Position numbers and translations under genes: made by a program
Part shown: piece after piece, positions 430 to 58,000 of the stretch
How positions within the stretch are numbered: position 1 is the stretch's first letter
How the letters are laid out: each line of letters opens with the position of its first letter
The notes under the pieces: generated by a model
Databases searched by the model: none
What the model was told of the DNA's origin: nothing
The model's input: only the letters and a program-made list of their open reading frames with translations
Source of the DNA: Chitinophagaceae bacterium
Lineage (GTDB): Bacteria > Bacteroidota > Bacteroidia > Chitinophagales > Chitinophagaceae
Assembly (NCBI GenBank): GCA_019747705.1
Contig: JAIEQM010000019.1
Coordinates: 1,921-65,920 of the forward strand
Direction: 5' to 3'
DNA: 64,000 nt

Positions 430-1224
430 CTACTTCCCTTTAAACACCGGCATCCGTTTCTGCAAAAACGCATTAATCCCTTCTGCATAATCGTCTGTTT
501 GCGCTGCTTTTTGCTGAAACTCATCTTCCAGCAGCAACTGTTCTTCCCAACTATTGGTGAAGGAATGATTCAACGCATGTTTGGAAAAAGCCAATCCTTT
601 GGTGGGCATTTGTGCCAATGTATGTGCCAGCTTTTTGCTTTCTTCTTCAAAGGTTACATCAGGAAATACTTTATACACCATACCTAAACGTTCGGCTTCG
701 TTTGCAGAAACTTTATCACCCGTCATCATCAAGGCGCTTGCTTTTTGCCAGCCGATTAATCTGGGCAATGTAAAGGTGCCGCCGCTATCTGGTATCAAAC
801 CAATTTTTGAAAATGCCTGGATAAATGAAGCTGATTCAGCAGCCACCACCACATCGCAACACAATGCAATGTTAGCGCCTGCACCAGCAGCAACTCCATT
901 CACAGCAGCTACAACAGGCTTGGGCAAATTGCGGATGCGTTTTACAATGGGGTTGTAATGTTCAGATAAAATTTGAGCGATTGTTATCTCCTCCTCCTTG
1001 GAGGGAGGTTGGGAGGGGGCCAACTCACTGATGTCCTGACCTGCACTGAATGCTTTTCCATTGCCTGTGATATAGACACAACGCACTTCATGCAGCGATG
1101 CACATTCATCCAAACGGTTTTGCAAAAGCAAAGCCATTTCACGGTTGAATGAATTAAATTTTTCAGGGCGGTTGAGATGGATAGTTGCAACCGCATCTTT
1201 GATTTCAAACTGAACAGGGGTCAT
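430..1224 (-). CDS. enoyl-CoA hydratase/isomerase (crotonase fold, PaaG-like)
   Basis: 264 aa with crotonase motifs: GNGKAFSAGQD, PKPVVAAVNGVAAGAGANIAL, EGINAFLQKRMPVF. Confidence 0.85.
   Translation of the reverse strand: MTPVQFEIKDAVATIHLNRPEKFNSFNREMALLLQNRLDECASLHEVRCVYITGNGKAFSAGQDISELAPSQPPSKEEEITIAQILSEHYNPIVKRIRNLPKPVVAAVNGVAAGAGANIALCCDVVVAAESASFIQAFSKIGLIPDSGGTFTLPRLIGWQKASALMMTGDKVSANEAERLGMVYKVFPDVTFEEESKKLAHTLAQMPTKGLAFSKHALNHSFTNSWEEQLLLEDEFQQKAAQTDDYAEGINAFLQKRMPVFKGK
988..1021 (+). repeat. GC-rich hairpin + G-tract element (family A-like) inside the enoyl-CoA hydratase CDS
   Basis: ctcctcctccttggagggaggttgggagggggcc: stem CCTCCT/GGGAGG followed by GGTTGGGAGGGGG. It encodes LAPSQPPSKEEE on the gene strand. 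Confidence 0.45.
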
Positions 1225-11202: not shown

Positions 11203-11697
11203 TTAATGACACTTAAAATAATCAAACGGCTCTTGGCAATCATTGCATTGATACAAAGCTTTGCAGGCGGTGCTGCCAAATTCGCTGATGAGGTTGGTGT
11301 GCTGCGAATTACAGTGAGGGCATGTTACATTATCGTTTGGCCATCTGGAATGGCCTGACGAATATTGCGGCGGTGCAATACCGTATTCTTTCAACTTTCT
11401 TTTTCCCTCTTCACTCATCCAATCAGTGGTCCAGGCGGGAGAAAGTACGGAAGTAACTTTTATATTTTGTATTCCATGCTCAGCAAGTGCAAGCCGGATG
11501 TTTGTTGCAATCATATCCATTGCGGGGCAACCATTATAAGTTGGTGTGATAAAAACTTCCACACTTCCATCATCTTTTAACTGCACATCACGCAAAATGC
11601 CGAGGTCGTTGATGGTGAGTACAGGAACTTCAGGGTCAGTTACTGTTTCTAAAATTCCAAGCAGCAATTCTTTTGATATGTTTGCTGTGTTTACCAT
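11203..11697 (-). CDS. paaD: 1,2-phenylacetyl-CoA epoxidase subunit PaaD
   Basis: 164 aa with DPEVPVLTINDLGILRDV and a C-terminal CPxC...CxxC cluster. Operon context; overlaps the paaC end by 7 nt. Confidence 0.85.
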   Translation of the reverse strand: MVNTANISKELLLGILETVTDPEVPVLTINDLGILRDVQLKDDGSVEVFITPTYNGCPAMDMIATNIRLALAEHGIQNIKVTSVLSPAWTTDWMSEEGKRKLKEYGIAPPQYSSGHSRWPNDNVTCPHCNSQHTNLISEFGSTACKALYQCNDCQEPFDYFKCH

Positions 11698-12497
11698 TGT
11701 GAGTTGGGATAGGCTCTTTGCAGGTATTGCAAATCAGCAAGAATATATCCGAGGTGTTCCGTGTGTGTACCTGTTTTACCGCCTGTTTGCATGAATACAG
11801 CCCCCCCACCCCCCGAAGGGAGGATTAAAGCAGCTTCTGCAAAAACTGTATTCACTTTTTCAGTCCACCTGTTATTAATATCATTGAAATCAATATTCAA
11901 ATGCAATTCATAATCTGCAGCTATAAACATTTCGCCTGTATAACACCACAGTTCATTAATGGCATGCAGCATCCGTTGTTTGCTTTCAGCAGTACCATCA
12001 CCCAAACGAATGACCCACTCACTGCTCCAGCGCACATGATAGTTGGTTTCTTTTAATGATTTGGTTGCAATGGCTGCTATGTGTTCATCATTATGATGTT
12101 GCAGTTGCTGAAATAGCAATTGCTGAAACTGGCTGTATAAATATTGGCGAAGGATGGTTTGTCCCCAATCGCTATTGGGTTGTTCTGCAAGAAGAAGGTT
12201 TTTGAATTGTCGCTCTGTGCGTAAGTATGCTAATGTGTCTTCGTTCACCTCATCCCCAACCCTTTCTCCCTGAGGAGAAGGGGCTTTTACGCCCTCCGCT
12301 TTTTTTGACTCGTTGATTAGTTGTGCAGCATATTGATAAAACAATCTTGCCTGTCCTAATAAATCCAATGAGATATTTGTTAATGCAATATCCTGCTCCA
12401 GGATTGGGCCATGCCCGCACCATTCACTGTTTCTGTGAGAGAGAATGAGTGTGGTATCGGCTAAGTGCAGCAGGTAATTTATGAGTGGGTTATTCAT
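11691..12497 (-). CDS. paaC: 1,2-phenylacetyl-CoA epoxidase subunit PaaC (carries two hairpin-element insertions)
   Basis: 268 aa with LLHLADTTLILSHRNSEWCGHGPILEQDIALTNISLDLLGQAR and C-terminal GGKTGTHTEHLGYILADLQYLQRAYP. Operon context. Confidence 0.85.
   Translation of the reverse strand: MNNPLINYLLHLADTTLILSHRNSEWCGHGPILEQDIALTNISLDLLGQARLFYQYAAQLINESKKAEGVKAPSPQGERVGDEVNEDTLAYLRTERQFKNLLLAEQPNSDWGQTILRQYLYSQFQQLLFQQLQHHNDEHIAAIATKSLKETNYHVRWSSEWVIRLGDGTAESKQRMLHAINELWCYTGEMFIAADYELHLNIDFNDINNRWTEKVNTVFAEAALILPSGGGGAVFMQTGGKTGTHTEHLGYILADLQYLQRAYPNSQW
11800..11825 (-). repeat. GC-rich hairpin + G-tract element, family A, in frame in paaC
   Basis: Gene strand ATCCTCCCTTCGGGGGGTGGGGGGGC encodes ILPSGGGGA. 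Confidence 0.7.
12246..12284 (-). repeat. hairpin element, family B, in frame in paaC
   Basis: Gene strand GCCCCTTCTCCTCAGGGAGAAAGGGTTGGGGATGAGGTG encodes APSPQGERVGDEV. It is near-identical in architecture to 27369-27407. Confidence 0.7.
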
Positions 12498-13587
12498 TTT
12501 CTGCTTTTTTTAATTCGTTATCCCATTCTTCCGGCGTAGGAAGTTCTGTTTGAATTTCAGATGGCAGTTCCATATAAGTAAAACTGCTGATTCCTATGGG
12601 GTTCGCAATATCTTTCAGTGAAAAATCAACAACTACATTGTCTTTGTTTTTGCATAACAGGATGCCGATAGCAGGTTTATCCTCTTTACCTTTTATTGTT
12701 TCATTAATGGCATTGATGTAAAAATTCATTTTCCCTGCATGCTCAGGTTCAAATTCATTCATTTTTAAATCAATAATAATGAACCGCTTTAAATGAATAT
12801 GATAAAACAGCAGGTCAGTCTTAAACTCCCTGTTACCCGCTTTGAGCACATATTGCCTTCCCAGGTAAGCAAAGCCCCTGCCCAGTTCCAGTAAAAATTC
12901 AGTGATATGCTGTACTAATTTTTTTTCAAGCTCAAGCTCTTTTACTGTGGCAGAGAGCGACAGAAATTCAAAATTATAAGGGTCTTTGAGTAATTCAATT
13001 GCCAAATCACTGTCTTCTTTCGGCAAAGTGTTTTCAAAATTGGTAACAGCTTTTCCCTGCCGTTTGTACAAGCCGCTTTCTATTTGATATTCTAATACAG
13101 AACGGCTCCAGTTGTTGAGAATGGTTTGTTGAACGTAAAACAGAACTTCTTCTCTGTCCTTAACTTTTTCAATGATAAAAACATTATGCTTCCATGGAAT
13201 TTGAGAGCAGAACTTTATTATCTCCGGCAAATTCGTTTGTCCCCCAGGCCGGGGGATAACTAAAGCATCAATTTGTCCCCCAGGCCGGGGGACAAATTGA
13301 AATGAAGCGTAAAACTGATAAAACTTTTTTACTGCGAATAAATTTGTGCGGGAAAACCCGCCCATATCCGGAAAAGCGGCCTTCAAATCTTTGCTTAGCT
13401 GTTCAATAAAACCGCTGCCCCATTTGCTCAATTCCTGTTTCTCAGTTATTTGTTTGCCGAGCTCCCAATACAATAATATTAATTGACTGTTTACGGCAAC
13501 GGCCGCCTTTAATTGCCTTTGTTTGATAACAGCTTTTAAATTTGTTATCCAGTTTTTGTATTCTTTATTGTTTGAAAATAAATCCAT
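12490..13587 (-). CDS. DUF1016 / YhcG-family PD-(D/E)XK nuclease, inserted between paaB and paaC
   Basis: 365 aa. The N-terminal AVAVNSQLILLYWELGKQI...WGSGFIEQLSKDLKAAFPDMGGFSRTNLFAVKKFY is typical of YhcG/DUF1016. The C-terminal IIDLK...EPEHAGKMNFY is a PD-(D/E)XK-like core. Confidence 0.75.
   Translation of the reverse strand: MDLFSNNKEYKNWITNLKAVIKQRQLKAAVAVNSQLILLYWELGKQITEKQELSKWGSGFIEQLSKDLKAAFPDMGGFSRTNLFAVKKFYQFYASFQFVPRPGGQIDALVIPRPGGQTNLPEIIKFCSQIPWKHNVFIIEKVKDREEVLFYVQQTILNNWSRSVLEYQIESGLYKRQGKAVTNFENTLPKEDSDLAIELLKDPYNFEFLSLSATVKELELEKKLVQHITEFLLELGRGFAYLGRQYVLKAGNREFKTDLLFYHIHLKRFIIIDLKMNEFEPEHAGKMNFYINAINETIKGKEDKPAIGILLCKNKDNVVVDFSLKDIANPIGISSFTYMELPSEIQTELPTPEEWDNELKKAENE
13236..13297 (-). 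repeat. two tandem copies of a perfect GTCCCCC-AGGCC-GGGGGA hairpin, 36 bp apart, in frame in the DUF1016 gene
   Basis: The 21-mer tttgtcccccaggccggggga occurs at 13236-13256 and 13272-13292. It encodes VPRPGGQ ... IPRPGGQ. Confidence 0.8.
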
Positions 13588-13600
13588 TGCAGTTACGGCA

Positions 13601-13984
13601 TTACATATAATTCACCTCATCCGGTAATTGATAAAACGTTGGATGACGATATACTTTATCAACCGCAGGTTCATACAACTCACCTGCTTCTTCAGGGTTA
13701 CTTGCAGTAATGTATTTACTTTCCACCACCCAAATACTTACACCTTCCATTCTTCTTGTATATACATCTCTCGCATTTTCAATAGCCATCTGCGCATCTG
13801 CTGCATGCAGGCTGCCTACATGTTTGTGGTCTAATCCCTGTTTGCTTCTGATAAATACTTCCCACAAAGGCCAACCCCCTCCGCCCCCTGAAGGGGGAAC
13901 TTGAGAGCTTTCATTTTTTATTTCTCCTCCTGAATTAGTATCAGGAATATCACCGTAATAAAATTTTCTGATTAAGAAGTTCAT
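13601..13984 (-). CDS. paaB: 1,2-phenylacetyl-CoA epoxidase subunit PaaB with N-terminal extension
   Basis: 127 aa. The core WPLWEVFIRSKQGLDHKHVGSLHAADAQMAIENARDVYTRR...YRHPTFY is canonical PaaB. About 35 extra N-terminal residues contain a hairpin element. Confidence 0.85.
   Translation of the reverse strand: MNFLIRKFYYGDIPDTNSGGEIKNESSQVPPSGGGGGWPLWEVFIRSKQGLDHKHVGSLHAADAQMAIENARDVYTRRMEGVSIWVVESKYITASNPEEAGELYEPAVDKVYRHPTFYQLPDEVNYM
13869..13900 (-). repeat. GC-rich hairpin + G-tract element, family A, in frame in the paaB 5' part
   Basis: Gene strand GTTCCCCCTTCAGGGGGCGGAGGGGGTTGGCC encodes VPPSGGGGGW, directly fused to the conserved WPLWEV. Confidence 0.75.
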
Positions 13985-13995
13985 GAAAAATAATT

Positions 13996-14502
13996 TTATT
14001 GTTTAAAACCAATTCTTGTTCTGTTTTTAAAATCTTCTTCTGTTTGTTTTTCTGCAACCAAATATTCAAGTGCTTTAAATATCTCTTTAAAATTTTTACT
14101 ATACTTTTTCTCAAGCTTTATTATTTTTTCGTACAGTTCTTTATGTGCCAATGCGGTTTGCCTGATTAACACAAATGTGCGGATGATAATGATATTTACC
14201 TGTATTGCCTTTTCACTGTTTAATACGCTTGATAGCATAGCAACACCCTGTTCTGTAAACACAAAAGGTTTTGCGCCGCCTAATTTACTTTTTGATGGTA
14301 TCACAAATTGTGATACCATATTTTCAATTTCTTTATCGGTCAATTGAAACATGAAATCGGAAGGAAACCGGTGAAGATTTCTTTTAACCGCCTGTTTCAA
14401 AACCCTTGTTTCTACTTCATACATTTCTGCTAAATCAAAATCCAGCATTACTTTCAAGCCACGGATTTCATAAATCTTAGTTTGTATAACCGATAGCTGC
14501 AT
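13996..14502 (-). CDS. ORF6N-domain protein (KilA-N-related DNA-binding family), inserted between paaA and paaB
   Basis: 168 aa. IYEIRGLKVMLDFDLAEMYEVETRVLKQAVKRNLHRFPSDFMFQLT...FVFTEQGVAMLSSVLNSEKAIQVNI is the ORF6N signature. Confidence 0.75.
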   Translation of the reverse strand: MQLSVIQTKIYEIRGLKVMLDFDLAEMYEVETRVLKQAVKRNLHRFPSDFMFQLTDKEIENMVSQFVIPSKSKLGGAKPFVFTEQGVAMLSSVLNSEKAIQVNIIIIRTFVLIRQTALAHKELYEKIIKLEKKYSKNFKEIFKALEYLVAEKQTEEDFKNRTRIGFKQ

Positions 14503-14550
14503 ATAATAGAATTTATGGCTATAGAATTTGCTATAGAAAATTAGTTTTTA

Positions 14551-15528
14551 TCAGGCTGCCTTTAAAGCCCCGGAATTTATCCCGCCATCAGCGGGAGGGG
14601 TTTGGGGCTTCTTCTTCTCCGCATGCGCCATTGCTGCTTCTCTCACCCATTTACCATTTTCATGTGCTTTACGCCGTGCATCTAATCTTTGCTTATTGCA
14701 GGGGCCATTACCTTTCACCACATTCCAGAATTCATCCCAGTTAATTTCACCAAAATCATAATGCTTTCGTTCTTCATTCCACTTTAAATCTTTATCAGGC
14801 AGAGTCATTCCTAATACTTTTACCTGCCCGGCAATCATATCTACAAAATTCTGACGCAACTCATCATTGGTTTTGCGTTTGATTTTCCATTTCATGCTCT
14901 GGTCGCTGTTGGTGCTTTCACTATCCTTTGGCCCAAACATCATGAGTGAAGGCCACCACCATCTGTTAATCGCATCCTGGCACATGGCTTTTTGTTCAGC
15001 CGTTCCTTTACTTAAAACCAATAATGATTCAAAACCCTGCCGCTGATGAAAACTTTCTTCTTTGCAAATACGCACCATCGCACGTGCATATGGACCGTAG
15101 CTTGTACGTGTGAGCATCACCTGGTTCATAATAGCAGCGCCATCCACCAGCCAGCCGATGGCGCCCATATCAGCCCATGTTAATGTGGGATAATTAAAGA
15201 TGGATGAATATTTTGCTTTGCCGCTGTGCAGGTCATTTATCATTTCATCCCTGCTCATACCCAATGTTTCAGCAGCAGAATATAAATACAAACCATGACC
15301 TGCTTCATCCTGCACTTTGGCAATTAATATTGCTTTGCGTTTGAGTGATGGGGCACGGGTAATCCAGTTGCCTTCGGGCAGCATACCTACAATTTCGCTG
15401 TGTGCATGCTGACTGATTTGCCGGATGTTTGTTTTTCGGTACGCATCAGGCATCCAATCCTTAGGTTCAATTTTTGTTTCAGCATCAATTTGCTGTTGAA
15501 AGTGTGCTTCTAAATCGTGGATAGACAT
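14551..15528 (-). CDS. paaA: 1,2-phenylacetyl-CoA epoxidase catalytic subunit PaaA
   Basis: 325 aa ferritin-like di-iron protein: [37 protein letters not shown]. Confidence 0.9.
14579..14608 (+). repeat. GC-rich hairpin + G-tract element in the 3' tail of paaA
   Basis: atcccgccatcagcgggaggggtttggggc: stem TCCCGC/GCGGGA then GGGGTTTGGGG. It encodes the tail [11 protein letters not shown] just before the stop. Confidence 0.65.
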
Positions 15529-19045: not shown

Positions 19046-19948
19046 TTGAAACAACTCTTTACCGCCACTATTCAGCATTTAAAGCAGAGCTTTTCATTCT
19101 TTACTTTTTTCCTTTGTTTTATTACCATTGCTGTTGCCTGCTGCAGTAACTATTACGGTTATTTTAAACTTTGGCCTGTTCATGAGTCATTTACAAAGTC
19201 ATTCTTCTTCCTGTTTGTTTTATTCTTTGTGTTTTTTACAGCCGGGCTGGCATTTACACTGCTGAATAAACACACAAAGCCGGTTTGGAACAATCATTAC
19301 AAATGGATTTTTATTGCAGCCCCTGCAGTGTTTGCATTAAAGGTGAGCCTGCCCTTTGATGAGTTATTGCTGAATCATTTTTCGGCGGCGTATCAACTGG
19401 CATTTCATAAAGCTGCTGCCTGGATGGGTGGTTTCCTGTTTACAGTTCCTGTATTAATGCTCTTGTATTATTTGTTTGAACAAAAATGGAATCTTTATTT
19501 CATTAAAAAAACAAACTCTTTTACGCCTTACTTAGTGCTGTTGCTGTGCATGGTTCCCCTGCTTTTATTTGCATCTGCACAAACTTCCTTTCAGCAGGTA
19601 TATCCGAGAAGTAAAGATGTGGCAATGGCATTGGGTAATTCTGCCACACCATTTCATTACATTTTTTTTGAGTTGGGTTATGCTATGGATTTTATTACGA
19701 TTGAATTGTTTTTTCGTGGTTTACTGATTGCAACCGTAAGCCGTGTGCTGGGCATCCGTTGCATTATTCCTGTGGCATTATTTTATTTTTCCATCCACCT
19801 GGGCAAGCCGATGCTGGAAGCCATCAGCAGTTTTTTTGGAGGATTAATTTTAGGGGCTGTGAGTTATGAAACCAAAAGCATCTGGGGCGGATGGATGGTA
19901 CACTTTGGTATTGCTTTGCTGATGGAGTTGCTGGGGTATATTATGTAA
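19046..19948 (+). CDS. CPBP-family intramembrane glutamic endopeptidase (CAAX protease-like)
   Basis: 300 aa, polytopic, with IELFFRGLL and FSIHLGK...FFGGLILG motifs. Start uncertain. Confidence 0.65.
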   Translation: MKQLFTATIQHLKQSFSFFTFFLCFITIAVACCSNYYGYFKLWPVHESFTKSFFFLFVLFFVFFTAGLAFTLLNKHTKPVWNNHYKWIFIAAPAVFALKVSLPFDELLLNHFSAAYQLAFHKAAAWMGGFLFTVPVLMLLYYLFEQKWNLYFIKKTNSFTPYLVLLLCMVPLLLFASAQTSFQQVYPRSKDVAMALGNSATPFHYIFFELGYAMDFITIELFFRGLLIATVSRVLGIRCIIPVALFYFSIHLGKPMLEAISSFFGGLILGAVSYETKSIWGGWMVHFGIALLMELLGYIM

Positions 19949-20058
19949 TACCAATTTTAAATATAATATAGCCCAATAAAATAAGTGTTAAACTGTTGAA
20001 ACGTATAATACCGCAAAAAAACAAACTATGGACTATATAATAACTGTAAGCGGTATAA
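19946..20058 (-). repeat. ~113 bp TIR-bounded intergenic repeat, copy B
   Basis: The reverse complement aligns over its whole length with 41688-41800 (e.g. TTATTGGGCTATATTATATTTAAAATTGGTA vs TTATTGGACTATATTATTTTAAAAATTGGTA). Ends are TAATACC...GGTATTA. Confidence 0.75.
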
Positions 20059-26367: not shown

Positions 26368-27368
26368 ACATCCATCACATCTCTTTGTTCTTCTGCTGTT
26401 TTCTTAAATGCCTTGTTTACCAGGTACACACCGTAAAGTGTTACCAACCCGCCAATCATTAATACAGTAGTAAGCTTTTCATCAAAAATTAAAGCGCCCA
26501 GCAATACAGCAACAACGGGGTTAATGTATGCATAAATGCTGGCCTGCTCTGTGGGTAAATGCTGTAAAGAATATAAATAAGCAATAAATGCAATGATGGA
26601 ACCAAATACCACCAGGTAAGCAATAGCGCCCCATGATTGCCATGGAATATTGGGCGCCGGAATAAACTTAGGATCAAACGCAGAAATAAAAAACAAAGAT
26701 AATCCTGCAATTACCATCTGGAAACCCAATCCAAAATATGGATTGAATTTATTAGCGTGTTCTTTAGTATAGAGTGAACCAAAAGCCCATGTCCATGTAG
26801 CAATTAAGCTGAGTATGATTCCAAAACGAAAATCAGGGTTGAGAAAGTCTTTTAAATGATCATAAAAAATAATACACACACCTGCAAAACCCAGTATCAA
26901 ACCCACAATAGCTTTAGCTGGAATTTTTTCTTTGCTTGAAAACAAACCAATAATTACCAGCCATAATGGAAAGATGGCGCCAATGATTGAGCCCAAACCT
27001 GCCGAAATATATTTTACACCCCATGTACTCAAACCATTGCTGCAAACAAAATTTAAAAATGCCAGGATGATGAGCGGAAAAATATCTTTTGCTTTGGGCC
27101 ATGAGTGGCCTTTAATAAAAAAATAAGCGAGATAAATACTGCCGCCAATCATTTGGCGGATGCCGGCCATTTCCAGCGCAGGCATATGCTTCACGCCCTG
27201 CTTGGAAGCCAGCCAGGTAGTGCCCCATAATATACTTACCACTGCCAGTGCAAAAATAGCTTTGGCCCCTGTTCCTTTTTGACGTATGGTTAACGGATTA
27301 AGCGCTGATAAACTTTTTACAGCATCAGTTGCAGTGTTGATTGATTTATTGAAACTTGGTTTACGCAT
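26364..27368 (-). CDS. EamA/DMT-family transporter
   Basis: 334 aa with about 10 TM segments and two EamA-like halves. Confidence 0.8.
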   Translation of the reverse strand: MRKPSFNKSINTATDAVKSLSALNPLTIRQKGTGAKAIFALAVVSILWGTTWLASKQGVKHMPALEMAGIRQMIGGSIYLAYFFIKGHSWPKAKDIFPLIILAFLNFVCSNGLSTWGVKYISAGLGSIIGAIFPLWLVIIGLFSSKEKIPAKAIVGLILGFAGVCIIFYDHLKDFLNPDFRFGIILSLIATWTWAFGSLYTKEHANKFNPYFGLGFQMVIAGLSLFFISAFDPKFIPAPNIPWQSWGAIAYLVVFGSIIAFIAYLYSLQHLPTEQASIYAYINPVVAVLLGALIFDEKLTTVLMIGGLVTLYGVYLVNKAFKKTAEEQRDVMDV

Positions 27369-27407
27369 ACCTCATCCTCCATCTCCTTCTCCTTAAAGAG
27401 GAGGAGC
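27369..27407 (-). repeat. hairpin element, family B, directly upstream of the EamA start codon
   Basis: Minus strand GCTCCTCCTCTTTAAGGAGAAGGAGATGGAGGATGAGGT, compare 12246-12284. Confidence 0.7.
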
Positions 27408-27530
27408 GGTGCTGTATATCACTATTCTTCATTTTGTTCATCCAAATCATCTATTGAACTGTAATCAAAAAAAATTAAACCACCCTCATTTTATAATTAT
27501 CTGTAACAAGCTTGGGCTGCGCCAAGCAAT

Positions 27531-27560
27531 CCTGCCCCTTGGGGGGGAGTTAGAAGGGGC
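27531..27560 (+). repeat. GC-rich hairpin + G-tract element abutting the purH stop codon
   Basis: cctgccccttgggggggagttagaaggggc, immediately 3' of the purH stop (27561-27563). Confidence 0.55.
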
Positions 27561-29156
27561 TTAATGTTTAAAATGCCTCATCCCTGTAATCACCATTGCT
27601 AAGTTATGCCCTTTGCAATACGCAATGGAATCATTATCACGAATAGAACCTCCCGGCTGAATAAATGCTGTAATACCTGCTGCATGACCCATCTGCACAC
27701 AATCATTAAACGGAAAGAAGGCATCACTGGCCATTACTGCTCCTTTTAAATCAAAATTAAATTGCTTTGCTTTTTCTACTGACTGACGAAGTGAATCAAT
27801 ACGGCTGGTTTGTCCGCAACCCTTACCCACCAGCTGTTTATTTTTTACCAATGCAATGGCATTACTTTTTAGATGTTTGCAGACGAGGTTGGCAAAAATT
27901 AAATCTTCTTTTTCAGTTGAAGATGTTTCTCTGCCGCCTGCTTCTTTCCATTCAGTGTAATTACCTTCATCTGTTCCCTGTACCAGCACACCGTTGAGTA
28001 ATGATTTAAACTGGTCTTTGACAGAAGGCTGATTTTTTAATTGCAGTAAGATGCGGTTCTTCTTTGATTTTAAGATGCTCAATGCATCTTCATTAAACGA
28101 TGGTGCAATGAGCACTTCAAAAAATATTTCATTGATGGCATCGGCTGTTGCTTTATCAATTTCGCCATTGCAAACCAGCACACCGCCGAATGCACTTTCG
28201 GGGTCGCCTGCCAGTGCTGCATTCCAGCTTTCTTTTACTGTTGAGCGTTGTGCCACACCGCATACATTAGTATGTTTGATGATGGCAAAAACGGCCCCCT
28301 CCGCCCCCCGAGGGGGAACTGCTGCTGCACCTGCCCCGCTTTGCAACGATGCTGATGAATCATTGAACTCTCTTATGAGTTGCATAGCAGCATCCACATC
28401 AACGAGGTTATTGTAAGAGAGTTCTTTTCCATTCAATTGTTGAAACAGTTCATCAAGATTACCATAGAACCGTGCAGTTTGATGCGGATTTTCGCCATAG
28501 CGTAAAATCTTTTCTTCTTGGTTGAAAGGAGTTTCAATTGCCGATTGATGAAAATAATTGCTGATGGCCGTATCATAAGCCGTACATACATCAAATGCTT
28601 TAATGGCAAAACTTCTTCTTTGTTCATAAGAGGTTTCGCCATTTTGATTGCGAAGGATTTCTTCAAGCACTGCATATTCTTTTTTGGCTGCCAGCACCAC
28701 CACATCTTTATGATTTTTGGCAGCAGCACGGATCATGGAAGGCCCGCCGATATCTATCTTTTCAATAATGGCTTTTTCTTTTTCATCATCTCCGCCTTGA
28801 AAGGCGGAGCTATTCACCGCTTGCACGGTTTCTTCAAACGGATATAAATCCACAATCACCAAATCCATTTCAGGAATATTGTACTGTTTCATTTCTGCCA
28901 GATGCTGTTCATCATCCCGCTTGCCGAGGATACCACCAAATACGGAAGGGTGTAATGTTTTAACTCTGCCGCCCAAAATGGATGGATAGGTTGTAAGATT
29001 TTCAACCGGCACAACAGGAATACCCAGCTTTTCAATAAAACTTTGTGTGCCGCTGGTAGAATAAAGAATAACACCCTGCTGATGTAATAACTGAACGAGA
29101 GAATCCAAACCATCTTTATAAAAAACAGAAATGAGTGCTGATTGAATTTTTTTCAT
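27561..29156 (-). CDS. purH: bifunctional AICAR formyltransferase / IMP cyclohydrolase PurH (with internal ~22-codon insertion)
   Basis: 531 aa, collinear with PurH: ALISVFYKDGL, GGRVKTLHP, DIGGPSMIRAAAKNH, IIKHTNVCGVA, MASDAFFPF, GGSIRD, RHFKH. Confidence 0.95.
   Translation of the reverse strand: MKKIQSALISVFYKDGLDSLVQLLHQQGVILYSTSGTQSFIEKLGIPVVPVENLTTYPSILGGRVKTLHPSVFGGILGKRDDEQHLAEMKQYNIPEMDLVIVDLYPFEETVQAVNSSAFQGGDDEKEKAIIEKIDIGGPSMIRAAAKNHKDVVVLAAKKEYAVLEEILRNQNGETSYEQRRSFAIKAFDVCTAYDTAISNYFHQSAIETPFNQEEKILRYGENPHQTARFYGNLDELFQQLNGKELSYNNLVDVDAAMQLIREFNDSSASLQSGAGAAAVPPRGAEGAVFAIIKHTNVCGVAQRSTVKESWNAALAGDPESAFGGVLVCNGEIDKATADAINEIFFEVLIAPSFNEDALSILKSKKNRILLQLKNQPSVKDQFKSLLNGVLVQGTDEGNYTEWKEAGGRETSSTEKEDLIFANLVCKHLKSNAIALVKNKQLVGKGCGQTSRIDSLRQSVEKAKQFNFDLKGAVMASDAFFPFNDCVQMGHAAGITAFIQPGGSIRDNDSIAYCKGHNLAMVITGMRHFKH
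28293..28319 (-). repeat. GC-rich hairpin + G-tract element, family A, in frame in purH
   Basis: Gene strand GTTCCCCCTCGGGGGGCGGAGGGGGCC encodes VPPRGAEGA. It is nearly identical to the paaB copy. Confidence 0.8.
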
Positions 29157-29368
29157 GTGTTCCTTTTTATTTTAAATTTTTGCCACAACTTGTCCCGTCA
29201 TCTGCGGGATAGTATAATCATTAAAAATTATCATCCCGGTTGGTATAAAGGCGGGCTGCTAATTTTTAATGATTATTTCATGTTTGGAAGAAACTTTACC
29301 ACGAAGTTGCAAAGTCACAAAGAAGTGACCTTAGAGTCTTCGTGTCTTTGTGGTAAAAAATTGAGCAG

Positions 29369-35349: not shown

Positions 35350-35452
35350 CCATCCCCTTCAGGCTCCGCTTCGCTTCGGCCCCGACCGTTAGTGTCGGGG
35401 CTGGCTCGTCCCTCGCCACCTTTCGGGCATGGCAGCCCTTCAGCAATAAATC
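35350..35452. repeat. ~100 bp GC-rich island with nested hairpins
   Basis: ccatccccttcaggctccgcttcgcttcggccccgaccgttagtgtcggggctggctcgtccctcgccacctttcgggcatggcagcccttcagc. Includes GCCCCGAC-CGTTAGT-GTCGGGGC. Confidence 0.4.
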
Positions 35453-35467
35453 ATTATCAGCAATAAA

Positions 35468-35490
35468 AACGGCGGCCGAAGGCCGCCGTT
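35468..35490 (-). terminator. rho-independent terminator after the DUF3857-like gene
   Basis: aacggcggccgaaggccgccgtt, followed on the minus strand by TTTTATTG. Confidence 0.75.
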
Positions 35491-41687: not shown

Positions 41688-41800
41688 TAATACCGCTTGC
41701 AATTATCATTTAGTCCACAGCTTACTTTTGTGCGGCATTATACACCTCAAAAGTTGAACACCTTTTTTATTGGACTATATTATTTTAAAAATTGGTATAA
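41688..41800 (+). repeat. ~113 bp TIR-bounded intergenic repeat, copy A
   Basis: TAATACCGCTTGCAATTATCATTTAGTCCACAGCTTACTTTTGTGCGGCATTATACACCTCAAAAGTTGAACACCTTTTTTATTGGACTATATTATTTTAAAAATTGGTATAA, which aligns with the reverse complement of 19946-20058. Confidence 0.75.
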
Positions 41801-51010: not shown

Positions 51011-51136
51011 ACCAGACATTAAAACTGCCAAACCTTATTGTCATCCCGACGAAGGAGACACCTGCTGAACAATATTACTAATGACTAACAGTTCCCTCCT
51101 TCGTCGGGATGACAATACAACTTTAATGTAACTGGT
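51011..51136. repeat. MITE-like palindromic element (21 bp perfect inner inverted repeat, extended imperfect arms)
   Basis: attgtcatcccgacgaaggag (51037-51057) is the exact reverse complement of 51096-51116. The outer arms accagacattaaaa / tttaatgtaactggt also pair. Confidence 0.7.
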
Positions 51137-57114: not shown

Positions 57115-57798
57115 TTAATTCCATGTTCTGCCAAACACTTTTTGGAGCAATTGCGTTGTTCTTGCTTCAGCTTTGGTGCGGATGACGGTTTCCTGCTCTG
57201 CAATTTTATTAAACATGGCATTGGTTACCACACCTGCCAGCAGGTTATCAATATTCAAATTAAGATTTGCTTTATTGCCCAGCGCCAGTTTTGCCGGACC
57301 AATTAACCGGTTCCATTCATCAGCAATTTTATATTCGTTGAGTGAAGTGCGCATGATGGGTGTAACGGCAGTGCGCAGGCTGTCGCCCACTGTGGCACGT
57401 AAATAATCTGTTGCTGCAGTGCCGCCATTTTTTACAATGTTAATGGCATCACGTATGTTCATACGTTTAATACCGCTGATGAAAATGGGAATAGAGTTGG
57501 TTGCTGTTTGTGTGGCGGCGTTTGTAATTGTGCCGGAAAAACGTTCCACTTCATTGCTCAAACCCAGTTGCTGAAGTGTTTGCAAAACCTTACTCAGTTC
57601 CTGTGGCAGCACCGCATCCATCAGCATATTTTTATTGATGAGGGCATTGCCATTACTGGCGCCAATGGTGAGCATTTCTTTAATGGCATTGATGGCATCC
57701 CGTTCGCTGAGGATGTTTGCGGCTGCGTTTTGCAGTGTGGTGCAACTGTACAGAAAGAGTGTACAGTTAAGCAACAGGAGCGCTGTAATTTTTTTCAT
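57115..57798 (-). CDS. DUF4197-domain lipoprotein
   Basis: 227 aa with a lipobox (LFLYSC) and a repeated helical pattern typical of DUF4197. Confidence 0.65.
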   Translation of the reverse strand: MKKITALLLLNCTLFLYSCTTLQNAAANILSERDAINAIKEMLTIGASNGNALINKNMLMDAVLPQELSKVLQTLQQLGLSNEVERFSGTITNAATQTATNSIPIFISGIKRMNIRDAINIVKNGGTAATDYLRATVGDSLRTAVTPIMRTSLNEYKIADEWNRLIGPAKLALGNKANLNLNIDNLLAGVVTNAMFNKIAEQETVIRTKAEARTTQLLQKVFGRTWN

Positions 57799-58000
57799 GT
57801 GTTTATTTTCATTTTTTTGCCACTACTTGTACCGAACCATTCGGGATAGTAAGCCTATAATCATTGCTTATGGTAGGCATTGTTTATGGCATTTCATGAA
57901 GCAATCTTTTTCTATTGACGAAAGTTACAGCAGATAGTTGGTTGCTCATGGAAAATAATTTGCAGAAGGGCTGCCTGATTGAAGCGGAAATGAGGAAGCC

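What the first reader, a model, noticed from the sequence alone, without database searches (positions are those of the whole stretch)
28293..28358. About 22 extra codons, including a family-A hairpin element, inside a highly conserved stretch of PurH
PurH reads ...MQLIREFNDSSASLQSGAGAAAVPPRGAEGAVFAIIKHTNVCGVA. In the PurH proteins I know, the EF...(I/V)VKH(A/T)NPCG segment is separated by only a handful of residues, so about 20 residues here look inserted. The insert is the only GC-rich patch in the gene. It contains GTTCCCCCTCGGGGGGCGGAGGGGGCC plus a second GGGGCAGG-containing piece that resembles the element abutting the purH stop codon (27531-27560). An essential purine-biosynthesis enzyme carrying such an insert right before its formyltransferase-domain signature is a strong test case for whether the element is neutral, spliced or bypassed.
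Basis: partly seen in the sequence, partly recalled or inferred. Interest (0 to 1): 0.7.

Follow-up and report, generated by a model that had tools for sequence, protein, structure and literature searches.

The report
Mobile hairpin repeat inside PurH
A 63-base remnant of a small mobile palindromic DNA element sits in frame inside the essential purine-synthesis gene purH of a Chitinophagaceae bacterium and is most likely translated as a floppy 21-residue loop, much as Rickettsia palindromic elements are; the same loops of PurH have been colonised repeatedly in related species.

Summary
purH (27561-29156, minus strand) carries 21 extra codons (aa 269-289; nt 28290-28352), ending five residues before the catalytic Lys294-His295. 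Of 81 Chitinophagaceae purH alleles, 37 have no insert here ('EFxxTT|FA') and 44 carry inserts of 24 different lengths, all in frame.

The 3' 26 nt of the window's insert (GTTCCCCC-TCG-GGGGGC-GGAGGGGG) is the terminal module of a dispersed MITE-like family. It occurs in more than 120 metagenome contigs, with 39 inverted pairs against 3 in the wrong arrangement. Units are 75-254 nt, plus ~480-nt units carrying a DUF559 nuclease gene. A complete 192-nt relative sits between the purH stop and the eamA start (27369-27560) and is absent in close relatives. Other in-frame copies lie in PaaC, PaaB, PaaA and an enoyl-CoA hydratase in the same window.

The insert is most likely translated as a disordered loop. 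The frame is always kept, pN/pS is 0.4-0.9 against 0.07-0.12 for the gene, and AlphaFold2 predicts coil with pLDDT below 50. Nothing suggests splicing or bypass.

It works like Rickettsia palindromic elements, but in free-living Bacteroidota. PurH is a ~14-fold hotspot, partly through recombination; the cause is unresolved. Mobilisation by DUF559 is inference.

The parts
27561..29156 (-). purH, bifunctional AICAR formyltransferase / IMP cyclohydrolase, 531 aa. It is the host gene of the inserts.
   Evidence: ORF. Pfam PF02142 + PF01808. PDB homologues 4EHI, 3ZZM, 9OU7 and 1G8M. AlphaFold2 model matches PurH structures at E = 3e-43.
28290..28352 (-). Site-2 insert of 63 nt = 21 codons (ASLQSGAGAAAVPPRGAEGAV, aa 269-289), between helix 248-266 and strand 288-294, which ends in Lys294-His295.
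   Evidence: Gap in PDB alignments. Empty site in 37 of 81 relatives. Same insert in four independent assemblies. Coordinates. Coil with pLDDT below 50.
28295..28320 (-). Hairpin-plus-G-tail module (GTTCCCCC-TCG-GGGGGC-GGAGGGGG). It is the right-hand terminal inverted repeat of the dispersed family and the only part of the insert that is a dispersed repeat.
   Evidence: It matches 24 of 26 nt of the terminus flanking DUF559 units and MITE-like units in metagenomes. The 5' 38 nt of the insert are private to purH alleles.
28770..28823 (-). Site-1 variable segment (QAVNSSAFQGGDDEKEKA, aa 112-129; net +10 codons against 'ASTTDEKA'). It contains the hairpin CTCCGCC-TTTCAA-GGCGGAG (28788-28811) and an upstream hairpin ACCGT-GCAA-GCGGT.
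   Evidence: 66 of 81 alleles are empty and 15 filled. It is not dispersed elsewhere in 2.36 Mb. Covariation: 96% paired, 4 pairs with changes on both sides, 0 of 500 shuffles reach the observed score.
27369..27560 (-). Complete 192-nt MITE-like element wedged between the purH stop (TAA, 27561-27563) and the eamA start (ATG, 27366-27368). It has a C-tail plus hairpin left terminus next to purH, an AT-rich centre, and a polypyrimidine/polypurine hairpin plus purine tail as right terminus.
   Evidence: Empty junction CATTAATGCG in L082, L001 and L002, against filled junctions in the window, L081 and L083. Right terminus detected at 27373-27406 and left terminus at 27535-27559. A module follows the purH stop in about 16-22 of 81 loci.
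13873..13900 (-). Module with a core near-identical to the purH insert (CCCCCTCCGCCCCC-TGAA-GGGGGAAC on the + strand). It is read as QVPPSGGGGG immediately before the PaaB domain.
   Evidence: The PaaB Pfam domain starts at residue 38.
11801..11825 (-). In-frame module in PaaC, read as ILPSGGGGAVF.
   Evidence: There is a 4-residue gap against E. coli PaaC 1OTK at this point.
12250..12283 (-). In-frame module in PaaC, read as APSPQGERVGDE.
   Evidence: There is a 20-residue gap against E. coli PaaC 1OTK at this point.
987..1017 (+). Module inside the PaaG-like enoyl-CoA hydratase gene (430-1224, - strand), read on the other strand as ELAPSQPPSKEEE.
   Evidence: Net +3 residues against 4FZW_C.
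14579..14611 (+). Looser module (CCCGC-CATCA-GCGGG-AGGGGTTTGGGGC) forming the C-terminal tail of PaaA (…[11 protein letters not shown]…). Together with 13873-13900 it brackets the inserted ORF6N gene.
   Evidence: It did not pass the strict scans, so its membership is tentative.

Best explanation
The extra 21 codons are the in-frame remnant of a small, non-autonomous mobile palindromic element that landed in the DNA encoding a helix-to-strand loop of PurH.

The element family has 26-33-nt terminal inverted repeats. Each terminus is a C-rich/G-rich hairpin followed by a G-rich tail that repeats the 3' arm. Only the right-hand terminus plus 36-38 nt of now-private sequence survives in this gene.

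The insert is transcribed and translated with the rest of purH. It adds a Ser/Gly/Pro/Ala-rich, probably disordered surface loop that the enzyme tolerates. Selection has only filtered for copies that keep the frame and lack stop codons.

Filled alleles then persist, shrink by in-frame deletion, and move between related lineages by homologous recombination within this highly conserved gene.

What is shown:
- The insertion polymorphism.
- Family membership of the core.
- The terminal-inverted-repeat architecture, and an empty/filled pair for a complete element next to the gene.
- Frame conservation.
- Relaxed amino-acid constraint.
- The mosaic structure of the gene.

What is inferred:
- That the peptide is actually made.
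- That the loop is surface-exposed and harmless.
- That the DUF559 nuclease carried by ~480-nt units with the same termini mobilises the family.
For: Insertion and polymorphism:
- PDB alignments show a 19-20 residue gap.
- 37 of 81 alleles are empty with conserved EFxxTT|FA, and 44 are filled.
- The same insert occurs in four independent assemblies.

Repeat family:
- The core recurs in the window against no shuffle matches.
- It occurs in more than 120 metagenome contigs of 35-48% GC.
- There are 39 pairs in the terminal-inverted-repeat arrangement, against 3 in the opposite arrangement and 6 in the same orientation. Units are 75-254 nt, plus a class at 479-482 nt.
- A complete 192-nt element sits at the purH|eamA junction, which is empty in L082, L001 and L002.
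- Long purH inserts in L017, L025, L028, L034 and L043 have both termini.
- All five DUF559 genes chosen only by protein similarity are bracketed by the same termini.

Translation:
- There are 24 distinct insert lengths, all multiples of three and free of stop codons. Only 11 of 34 non-coding units have lengths that are multiples of three.
- pN/pS is 0.38-0.93 in the insert against 0.07-0.12 in the rest of the gene.
- Inserts are enriched in S, G and P.
- There are no Rfam hits.
- The AlphaFold2 model shows residues 267-285 as coil with pLDDT below 50, between helix 248-266 and strand 288-294.

Generality: in-frame copies occur in PaaC, PaaB, PaaA and an enoyl-CoA hydratase in the window. In metagenomes they occur in LeuRS, an ABC ATPase, an OTC-like enzyme, acetolactate synthase and the E2 linker.

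Recombination: the window's purH is closest to L082/L083 in the 5' third and closest to L204 (same insert) around and after site 2. All four site-1/site-2 combinations exist.
Against: - No target-site duplication is visible at any clean junction, so classical cut-and-paste transposition is not shown.
- Only 26 of the 63 nt belong to the dispersed family, and the origin of the 5' 38 nt is unknown.
- The predicted RNA fold is no more stable than shuffles (z = -0.28).
- Synonymous divergence within the insert (0.16-0.35) is well below that of the gene (0.56-0.69). This could mean nucleotide-level function rather than neutrality. The neighbouring site-1 insert does show compensatory stem changes.
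- PurH is ~14-fold enriched for modules over its flanks and no target motif explains it.
- There are no transcript or peptide data.
- Surface exposure rests on a medium-confidence model (mean pLDDT 70).
Confidence: 0.8

Rival explanations
1. This rival concerns history only. One or a few ancient insertions of a full-length element into the PurH loop, followed by differential in-frame deletion, concerted evolution of the two termini and inter-lineage recombination, produced all the variants. In this view purH is not a preferred target; it merely retains and exchanges old inserts.
For: - Nearly all filled alleles share the same right junction (…GGC(C/T)-GTN|TTTGC).
- L017 and L025 share homologous internal sequence but have diverged right termini.
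- L018, in a distant clade, shares the private AAGCGGGGC(A/T)GGT segment with the window type.
- The gene is a mosaic.
- No target motif exists.
Against: - Empty and filled alleles alternate between sister taxa all over the tree, and the empty ones keep identical TT codons.
- Remnants sit at two or more positions in the loop, before TT (L008, L045, L057, L077) or after it.
- Both orientations and several distinct terminus subfamilies occur within one clade of at least 83% identity.
- The same subfamily appears at site 1 in L050 and at site 2 in L058, L064 and L075.
- L017 has perfect 27-nt termini, which suggests a young copy.
Confidence: 0.3
2. The insert is a lineage-specific functional feature. 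It could be a regulatory or interaction loop of PurH, or an mRNA or DNA hairpin kept for expression control or recombination, rather than a passenger.
For: - Synonymous divergence in the insert is 2-4 times lower than in the gene.
- Stem and tail are more conserved than the loop among the four alleles.
- The site-1 hairpins show significant covariation.
Against: - The insert is present or absent among relatives at 90-94% identity, with no other change to the enzyme.
- The peptide is nearly unconstrained, with pN/pS up to 0.93.
- Inserts of 3 to 54 residues and unrelated sequence occupy the same loop.
- The core is a dispersed repeat that is mostly intergenic.
- The fold energy is unexceptional.
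- Low pS is equally well explained by recent spread through recombination.
Confidence: 0.1
3. The insert is removed before or during translation, as an intron-like sequence, an intein, or a translational bypass element like T4 gene 60 or mitochondrial byps. The mature enzyme would then lack it.
For: GC-rich hairpin inserts in AT-rich coding sequence are the hallmark of bypassed elements in some yeast mitochondria (background knowledge). No expression data exclude this here.
Against: - All 44 filled alleles, with 24 different lengths, are multiples of three and free of stop codons. Removal would not require that.
- 63 nt is far too short for an intein or a group I/II intron.
- There is no Rfam hit at either threshold.
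- There is no stop codon after a take-off codon, and the flanking codons (TCA … GTT) do not match. This follows directly from the sequence.
Confidence: 0.03
4. Assembly or binning artefact: a repeat read-through was wrongly joined into purH in this metagenome-assembled genome.
For: The window comes from a MAG contig (MBX9782201.1). Repeats of this family often break assemblies, and many DUF559 units lie on contigs of 0.5-1.5 kb.
Against: The same 63-nt insert, with 5-13 substitutions, is present in three other assemblies from different projects (ENA and JGI). The reading frame is intact and the flanks are collinear with 80 other purH loci.
Confidence: 0.01

Closest known systems
Rickettsia palindromic elements (RPEs; Ogata et al. 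2000, 2002, as summarised in PMC10969869)
   Same: - Short palindromic repeats inserted in frame into unrelated housekeeping genes and read through as extra peptide segments compatible with the fold.
- Found in both coding and non-coding positions.
- The mobilising enzyme is unknown.
   Different: - The host is a free-living member of Bacteroidota (Chitinophagaceae), not an obligate intracellular alphaproteobacterium.
- The termini have a distinctive hairpin-plus-G-tail design.
- Only about 12-14% of copies of this subfamily lie in long ORFs, against nearly half for RPEs.
- The purH copy is a 26-nt solo terminus rather than a ~150-bp element.
- The family has a candidate autonomous form carrying a DUF559 gene.
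- Sequence relatedness to RPE consensus sequences was not tested.
REP / REPIN elements with RAYT transposases (PMC3116915, PMC3337134, PMC3733652)
   Same: - A 25-30-nt GC-rich palindromic unit occurs as singlets and as inverted doublets separated by a spacer.
- The same units flank a small protein-coding gene.
- Copies often lie directly after stop codons.
   Different: - The flanked gene is a DUF559 / Vsr-like PD-(D/E)XK nuclease, not a Y1 HUH transposase.
- There is no GTAG or CGTC tag in the unit (sequences).
- The units enter coding sequence in frame, whereas REPs are extragenic by definition.
Bacterial MITEs in general (Correia, ERIC, BOX, Nezha; reviews PMC10969869, PMC3184786)
   Same: - Terminal inverted repeats, small size, no coding capacity and many copies.
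- Occasional in-frame intragenic copies.
- A longer relative shares the same termini.
   Different: - No target-site duplication is seen at clean junctions.
- No known transposase is associated.
- The internal sequence of the 75-254-nt units is not conserved, and often is just a terminator-like hairpin.
Free-standing or intron-borne homing endonucleases of the Vsr/DUF559 clade (PMC3424549)
   Same: - A small selfish PD-(D/E)XK nuclease gene is wedged precisely between or within conserved housekeeping genes: nuoD|nuoH, miaB-like|sigma-54 activator, smpB|sdaA.
- Inserts recur next to highly conserved sequence blocks of purH.
   Different: - No intron or intein context.
- No conserved target motif in 152 flanks.
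- No nuclease gene in or near purH, and no DUF559 gene in the window.
Mitochondrial GC clusters and translational-bypass 'byp' elements of yeasts (background knowledge)
   Same: GC-rich hairpin mini-elements invading AT-rich protein-coding genes.
   Different: Byps break the frame and are skipped by the ribosome. Here every copy keeps the frame and lacks stops, so read-through suffices.

Membership tests
PurH (AICAR formyltransferase / IMP cyclohydrolase) | N-terminal MGS-like IMPCH domain plus C-terminal AICARFT domain | tested here: met
   Pfam PF02142 + PF01808. Full-length alignment to 4EHI, 3ZZM, 9OU7 and 1G8M. The model matches PurH structures.
PurH (AICAR formyltransferase / IMP cyclohydrolase) | Intact catalytic Lys-His in the KH(T/A)N(V/P)CG motif. 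The catalytic assignment is background knowledge from avian and human ATIC. | tested here: met
   K294, H295, T296, N297, V298, C299 and G300 are invariant in 32 and in 120 relatives. The insert ends at residue 289.
Rickettsia palindromic elements (RPE) | Repeat copies inserted in frame in unrelated protein-coding genes and kept as open reading frame | tested here: met
   PurH (two sites), PaaC (two sites), PaaB, PaaA and the enoyl-CoA hydratase in the window. LeuRS, ABC ATPase, OTC-like enzyme, ALS and E2 in metagenomes. 44 of 44 purH inserts are in frame.
Rickettsia palindromic elements (RPE) | Element of ~100-150 bp able to fold into a long hairpin | tested here: inconclusive
   This holds for full-length purH inserts in relatives (dG -50 to -81 kcal/mol) and for metagenome units. 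The window's copy keeps only one 26-nt terminus, and its fold is not better than shuffles.
Rickettsia palindromic elements (RPE) | Insertion points lie at the protein surface and are compatible with the fold | tested here: inconclusive
   The AlphaFold2 model puts residues 267-285 in a coil with pLDDT below 50 between a helix and a strand. No coordinates were available to measure exposure or distance to the active site.
Rickettsia palindromic elements (RPE) | Sequence similarity to one of the RPE consensus families; Rickettsiales host | not tested
   No RPE sequences were compared. The host is Chitinophagaceae (record titles). It is filed as 'works like', not as a member.
MITE (miniature inverted-repeat transposable element) | Terminal inverted repeats bounding a short non-coding unit present in many copies | tested here: met
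   39 pairs in the inverted arrangement against 3 and 6 in the other arrangements. Units are 75-254 nt. More than 120 contigs carry the core.
MITE (miniature inverted-repeat transposable element) | Target-site duplication flanking the element | tested here: not met
   TAA|element|ATG against TAATG allows at most 1 nt of duplication. There are no direct repeats at ten clean units. Only position +1 is biased in 152 flanks.
MITE (miniature inverted-repeat transposable element) | Autonomous relative with the same termini encoding a transposase | tested here: inconclusive
   Units of ~480 nt with the same termini exist, and all five DUF559 genes sampled blind carry those termini. However, DUF559 is a Vsr-like nuclease with no demonstrated transposase activity.
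REP / REPIN-RAYT | Palindromic unit tagged by GTAG or CGTC at one end (PMC3733652) | tested here: not met
   The consensus A-CCCCCTCCGCCCCCTRAAGGGGGAAC contains neither tetranucleotide nor its complement (sequences).
REP / REPIN-RAYT | Units flank a RAYT (Y1 HUH transposase) gene | tested here: not met
   The flanked gene is DUF559 (Pfam E = 2e-29). Whether a RAYT exists elsewhere in these genomes was not tested.
REP / REPIN-RAYT | Inverted doublets plus singlets, mostly extragenic | tested here: met
   78 of 179 modules are in doublets and 101 are solo. 77 of 94 and 119 of 136 exact-core copies lie outside long ORFs.
Intein / group I or II intron / translational bypass element | Sequence removed from the RNA or protein, or skipped; no requirement for frame; splicing or take-off/landing signals present | tested here: not met
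   All lengths are multiples of three with no stops. The insert is 63 nt. There is no Rfam match. The flanking codons do not match and no stop follows the 5' junction.

The most novel reading that the evidence does not exclude
The purH insert is a footprint of an undescribed class of mini mobile element in Chitinophagaceae. Its autonomous form is a ~480-nt unit made of a DUF559 (Vsr-like PD-(D/E)XK) nuclease gene between two hairpin-plus-G-tail termini. Its non-coding derivatives (75-254 nt) and solo termini spread without target-site duplication. They land at stop/start junctions and, in frame, inside essential genes. Particular loops of PurH are preferred landing or retention sites, and the hairpins are kept by nucleic-acid-level constraint even inside coding sequence.
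Probability: 0.35. Interest if true: 0.75.

Novelty: new variant of a known kind. Interest (0 to 1): 0.55.

Why it matters
- It extends the Rickettsia phenomenon of selfish palindromes in protein-coding genes to free-living Bacteroidota. A 2024 review could only call that extension 'conceivable' (PMC10969869).
- It provides a large natural experiment. One loop, five residues from a catalytic Lys-His of an essential enzyme, tolerates 3 to 54 extra residues in dozens of species. That marks a permissive site for protein engineering.
- It is a caution for annotation and alignment of Chitinophagaceae proteins, where Ser/Gly/Pro-rich 'low-complexity' segments may be repeat-derived.
- The tight and unbiased association of the termini with a DUF559 nuclease gives a testable candidate for how such TSD-less palindromic elements move. 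That question is still open for RPEs.
- The covarying hairpin inside coding sequence at site 1 shows that DNA- or RNA-level constraint can override protein-level constraint in such inserts.

Tried and rejected
- **Generic repeat finding** did not detect the family, because the copies are too short and too divergent.
- **My first strict hairpin-plus-tail scan** had low sensitivity; it caught only 2 of about 20 modules at the purH stop junction (against 72). I repeated the enrichment test with a permissive uniform detector.
- **Rfam** gave only chance-level hits in the purH region and nothing at gathering thresholds in the whole window. There are no tRNAs.
- **Fold energy** of the insert region is not better than shuffles, so thermodynamics is not used as evidence.
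- **The first AlphaFold2 model**, from 32 sequences, was too poor to use (pLDDT 57.7). A 120-sequence alignment gave a usable one.
- **A sequence-specific homing target**: I considered this because both coding sites precede GCC-ATY-ATY-RAA. I rejected it because 152 flanks show no motif beyond position +1.
- **Phage carriage**: only 8 viral contigs have the core.
- **Literature searches** for such repeats in Bacteroidota, Chitinophagaceae, Ferruginibacter or Lacibacter, for a DUF559-repeat link, and for ATIC Lys266/His267 returned nothing relevant.
- **The site-1 hairpin as a dispersed repeat**: rejected, because it occurs only in purH.
Full report
**1. The observation**

The minus-strand ORF 27561-29156 encodes a 531-aa PurH whose sequence contains the quoted peptide. 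It has the MGS-like and AICARFT_IMPCHas domains and aligns end to end with solved PurH/ATIC structures.

In those alignments the segment SSASLQSGAGAAAVPPRGAEGA faces a gap of 19-20 residues (4EHI, 9OU7). For 3ZZM the alignment breaks into two pieces there.

The DNA under it is the most GC-rich stretch of the gene, at 0.62-0.65 in a window that averages 0.40. Against the nearest relatives with an empty site, the net gain is exactly 21 codons. This is ASLQSGAGAAAVPPRGAEGAV, residues 269-289, nt 28290-28352. The insert ends five residues before the invariant Lys294-His295 of the KHTNVCG motif.

**2. The site is polymorphic, and the insert is not an artefact**

Close homologues at 74-94% identity range from 500 to 563 aa. 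I extracted the region between NNLVDVDA and IIKHTN from 80 purH loci of Chitinophagaceae genomes plus the window. The results:

| Site 2 state | Alleles | Detail |
|---|---|---|
| Empty | 37 | 14 residues, A.QLI.EFxxTTFA, AT-rich and unstructured |
| Filled | 44 | 3 to 54 extra residues, 24 different lengths |

Every filled allele is in frame and free of stop codons.

The window's own insert type is present, with 5-13 substitutions, in three further assemblies from other projects (L204, L081, L205). A misassembly is therefore excluded.

A second site in the IMPCH domain behaves the same way. There, 66 alleles are empty (EETVASTTDEKAIIEK) and 15 are filled (+6 or +10 residues). The window carries the +10 form at aa 112-129, nt 28770-28823.

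**3. What the insert is**

Its 3' 26 nt, GTTCCCCC-TCG-GGGGGC-GGAGGGGG, recur almost identically at 13875-13900. Related forms occur at 987-1017, 11801-11825, 12250-12283 and 27373-27406, where shuffled sequence gives none.

Modules in those loci are arranged as follows:

| Arrangement | Count |
|---|---|
| Terminal-inverted-repeat pairs | 39 |
| Opposite arrangement | 3 |
| Same orientation | 6 |
| Solo modules | 101 of 179 (56%) |

Unit sizes run from 75 to 254 nt, with a discrete class at 479-482 nt. The short units have unrelated interiors, often a terminator-like hairpin.

The ~480-nt units carry a 120-aa DUF559 protein (Pfam E = 2e-29). To remove selection bias I searched for DUF559 homologues by protein sequence (482 with E ≤ 1e-20, many on 0.5-1.5-kb contigs). 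I then fetched five from long contigs. All five are bracketed by the same termini. They are wedged between nuoD|nuoH, a miaB-like gene|a sigma-54 activator, and smpB|sdaA.

Mobility of complete units is shown directly next to the gene in question. The purH stop and eamA start overlap (CATTAATGCG) in L082, L001 and L002. In the window (27369-27560), L081 and L083 they are separated by a 192-222-nt element with both termini.

The long purH inserts of L017, L025, L028, L034 and L043 likewise have both termini and an AT-rich centre.

The window's insert keeps only the right terminus. Its 5' 38 nt match nothing but other purH alleles, so the proposed GGGGCAGG relationship is not supported.

**4. 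How it most likely works: read-through**

Three lines of evidence point to a translated passenger.

- **Frame.** There are 24 different lengths, all multiples of three and all stop-free. Only 11 of 34 non-coding units of the same family have lengths that are multiples of three, as expected without constraint.
- **Constraint.** Among the four alleles with this insert, pN/pS is 0.38-0.93 inside it and 0.07-0.12 in the rest of the gene. Insert peptides are enriched in Ser, Gly and Pro.
- **Placement.** An AlphaFold2 model from 120 homologues (mean pLDDT 70, pTM 0.58) puts residues 267-285 in a coil with pLDDT below 50. The coil lies between helix 248-266 and strand 288-294. The model matches PurH crystal structures.

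Removal at the RNA or protein level is unlikely. The insert is 63 nt, has no Rfam match, has no stop after the 5' junction, and has no matching take-off and landing codons. That the peptide is actually made, and is harmless, remains inference.

In-frame copies elsewhere show this is a property of the family:

- **PaaC:** 20- and 4-residue gaps against 1OTK.
- **PaaB:** the copy sits directly before the Pfam domain.
- **PaaA:** the C-terminal tail.
- **PaaG-like hydratase:** one copy.
- **Metagenomes:** LeuRS, an ABC ATPase, an OTC-like enzyme, acetolactate synthase and the E2 linker.

Overall only about 12-14% of copies lie in long ORFs.

**5. History and the hotspot**

On a PurH tree built with the inserts masked, empty and filled alleles alternate even between sister taxa. 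Remnants occupy at least two positions in the loop, occur in both orientations, and belong to several terminus subfamilies within one clade. The same subfamily appears at site 1 in L050 and at site 2 in L058, L064 and L075. This argues for several independent insertions.

The gene is also mosaic. The window's purH is closest to L082/L083 in its 5' third and closest to L204 (same insert) around and beyond site 2. All four site-1/site-2 combinations exist. Homologous recombination therefore also spreads filled alleles.

With a permissive detector applied uniformly:

| Region | Modules | Density per 100 kb |
|---|---|---|
| Inside purH | 42 | 31.5 |
| purH stop junction | 12 | – |
| 10-kb flanks | 30 | 2.3 |
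| Shuffled control | – | 0.5 |

A module follows the purH stop within 0-6 nt in roughly a quarter of the loci. No target motif explains this. In 152 oriented flanks only position +1 is biased, with T at 72%. The cause of the hotspot is unresolved. Candidates are retention in the only tolerant loops, recombinational spread favoured by the high nucleotide conservation of purH, or an unknown local feature.

**6. Signs of nucleic-acid-level constraint**

The site-1 insert is not a dispersed repeat, yet its two hairpins covary across 11 species. In that alignment 96% of cells are paired, four pairs change on both sides, 0 of 500 shuffles reach the observed score, and slid controls give 30-58% paired.

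In the site-2 insert the stem and tail vary less than the loop. Synonymous divergence is 2-4 times lower than in the gene. Recent spread by recombination would give the same result, and the fold energy is unexceptional.

**7. Comparison with known systems**

Functionally this is the Rickettsia palindromic element phenomenon: in-frame palindromic repeats in housekeeping genes. The most recent MITE review treats it as special to Rickettsia and only 'conceivable' elsewhere (PMC10969869).

Architecturally the family resembles REP/REPIN elements, with singlets, inverted doublets and units flanking a small gene (PMC3116915, PMC3337134). However, it lacks the GTAG/CGTC tag (PMC3733652), and it flanks a DUF559 nuclease rather than a RAYT. 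It meets the MITE criteria except for target-site duplication and a recognised transposase.

DUF559 belongs to the Vsr clade of PD-(D/E)XK nucleases, which includes a homing endonuclease (PMC3424549). A selfish role is therefore plausible but untested. Searches of the held literature found no description of these repeats in Bacteroidota or of a DUF559-repeat association.

**8. Verdict**

The best explanation is an in-frame, translated, nearly neutral remnant of a mobile hairpin element in a tolerant loop of PurH (confidence about 0.8).

It is a new variant of a known kind: it works like an RPE, in a new phylum, with a distinctive terminus and a candidate nuclease partner. Two points raise interest above the ordinary. 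One is the repeated colonisation of the same loops of an essential enzyme. The other is the blind-tested DUF559 association, which makes the long-open question of how such elements move experimentally approachable.

Noticed in passing
window 11203-15528: The phenylacetate operon paaA-paaB-paaC-paaD (all minus strand) is interrupted by two extra genes. One is an ORF6N-domain gene (13996-14502) between paaA and paaB, bracketed by modules at 13873-13900 and 14579-14611. The other is a YhcG/DUF1016 PDDEXK-nuclease gene (12490-13587) between paaB and paaC. PaaB has a 37-residue N-terminal extension ending in the element-encoded QVPPSGGGGG.
   Followed up: partly
L110 620-1101, L112 1930-2408, L137 548-1028, L113, L177, L181, L214-L219: Discrete ~480-nt units consist of a 120-aa DUF559 nuclease gene between the same hairpin-plus-G-tail termini. 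They are wedged exactly between housekeeping genes (nuoD|nuoH, miaB-like|sigma-54 activator, smpB|sdaA). Two copies are frameshifted. All five genes sampled blind by protein similarity carry the termini.
   Followed up: yes
window 28770-28823 (purH site 1): A second in-frame insert in purH is not a dispersed repeat but forms two hairpins that covary across 11 species (CTCCGCC/GGCGGAG, CTCCGGC/GCCGGAG, CCCCACC/GGTGGGG, CACCGGC/GCCGGTG). The changes swap the encoded residues on both arms.
   Followed up: yes
L083 about 11585-11615, downstream of the purH stop: The left terminus of the purH|eamA element in L083 carries a nested ~30-nt insertion. The insertion is itself a small hairpin (GTAACC-TTCGTTCCTT-GGTTAC), so mini-elements insert into mini-elements.
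   Followed up: no
L219 about 975-1040: The right terminus of a DUF559 unit is tandemly duplicated (…GGGGGCGGAGGGG-TAAACAATTTTAAACC-AAGTTCCTCCTTTAGGGGGCGGAGGGGG).
   Followed up: no
L204 about 895-925; window 28295-28320: In L204 the 5' arm has mutated to CCTCC, which is complementary to the tail GGAGG rather than to the adjacent G-run. The MFE fold of the window copy also pairs the C-arm with the tail. This suggests two alternative hairpins per module.
   Followed up: no
window 51036-51117: A different palindromic element: 29-nt arms that are 90% complementary (TATTGTCATCCCGACGAAGGAG…), separated by 24 nt (I8).
   Followed up: no
window 35353-35439: An intergenic GC-rich patch with internal hairpins (for example CCCCGAC-CGTTAGT-GTCGGGG), followed at about 35470-35490 by a terminator-like hairpin. 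It has no Rfam match at gathering thresholds.
   Followed up: partly
window 29145-29214 and 57787-57851: The 5' region of purH, including its start codon, shares a ~70-nt block at 74-90% identity with the 5' region of a DUF4197 gene (57115-57798, minus strand). The block contains a small hairpin (TCCCG-N7-CGGGA). It may be a shared promoter or leader element.
   Followed up: partly
window 19948-20056 and 41690-41798: A 109-nt inverted repeat at 82% complementarity, with arms 21.6 kb apart. It is the longest repeat in the window (I1).
   Followed up: no
window 29214-29276: An AT-rich inverted repeat with 25-nt arms at 92% complementarity and a 13-nt spacer, between the 3' end of comEC and the purH promoter region. 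It is probably a terminator (I16).
   Followed up: no
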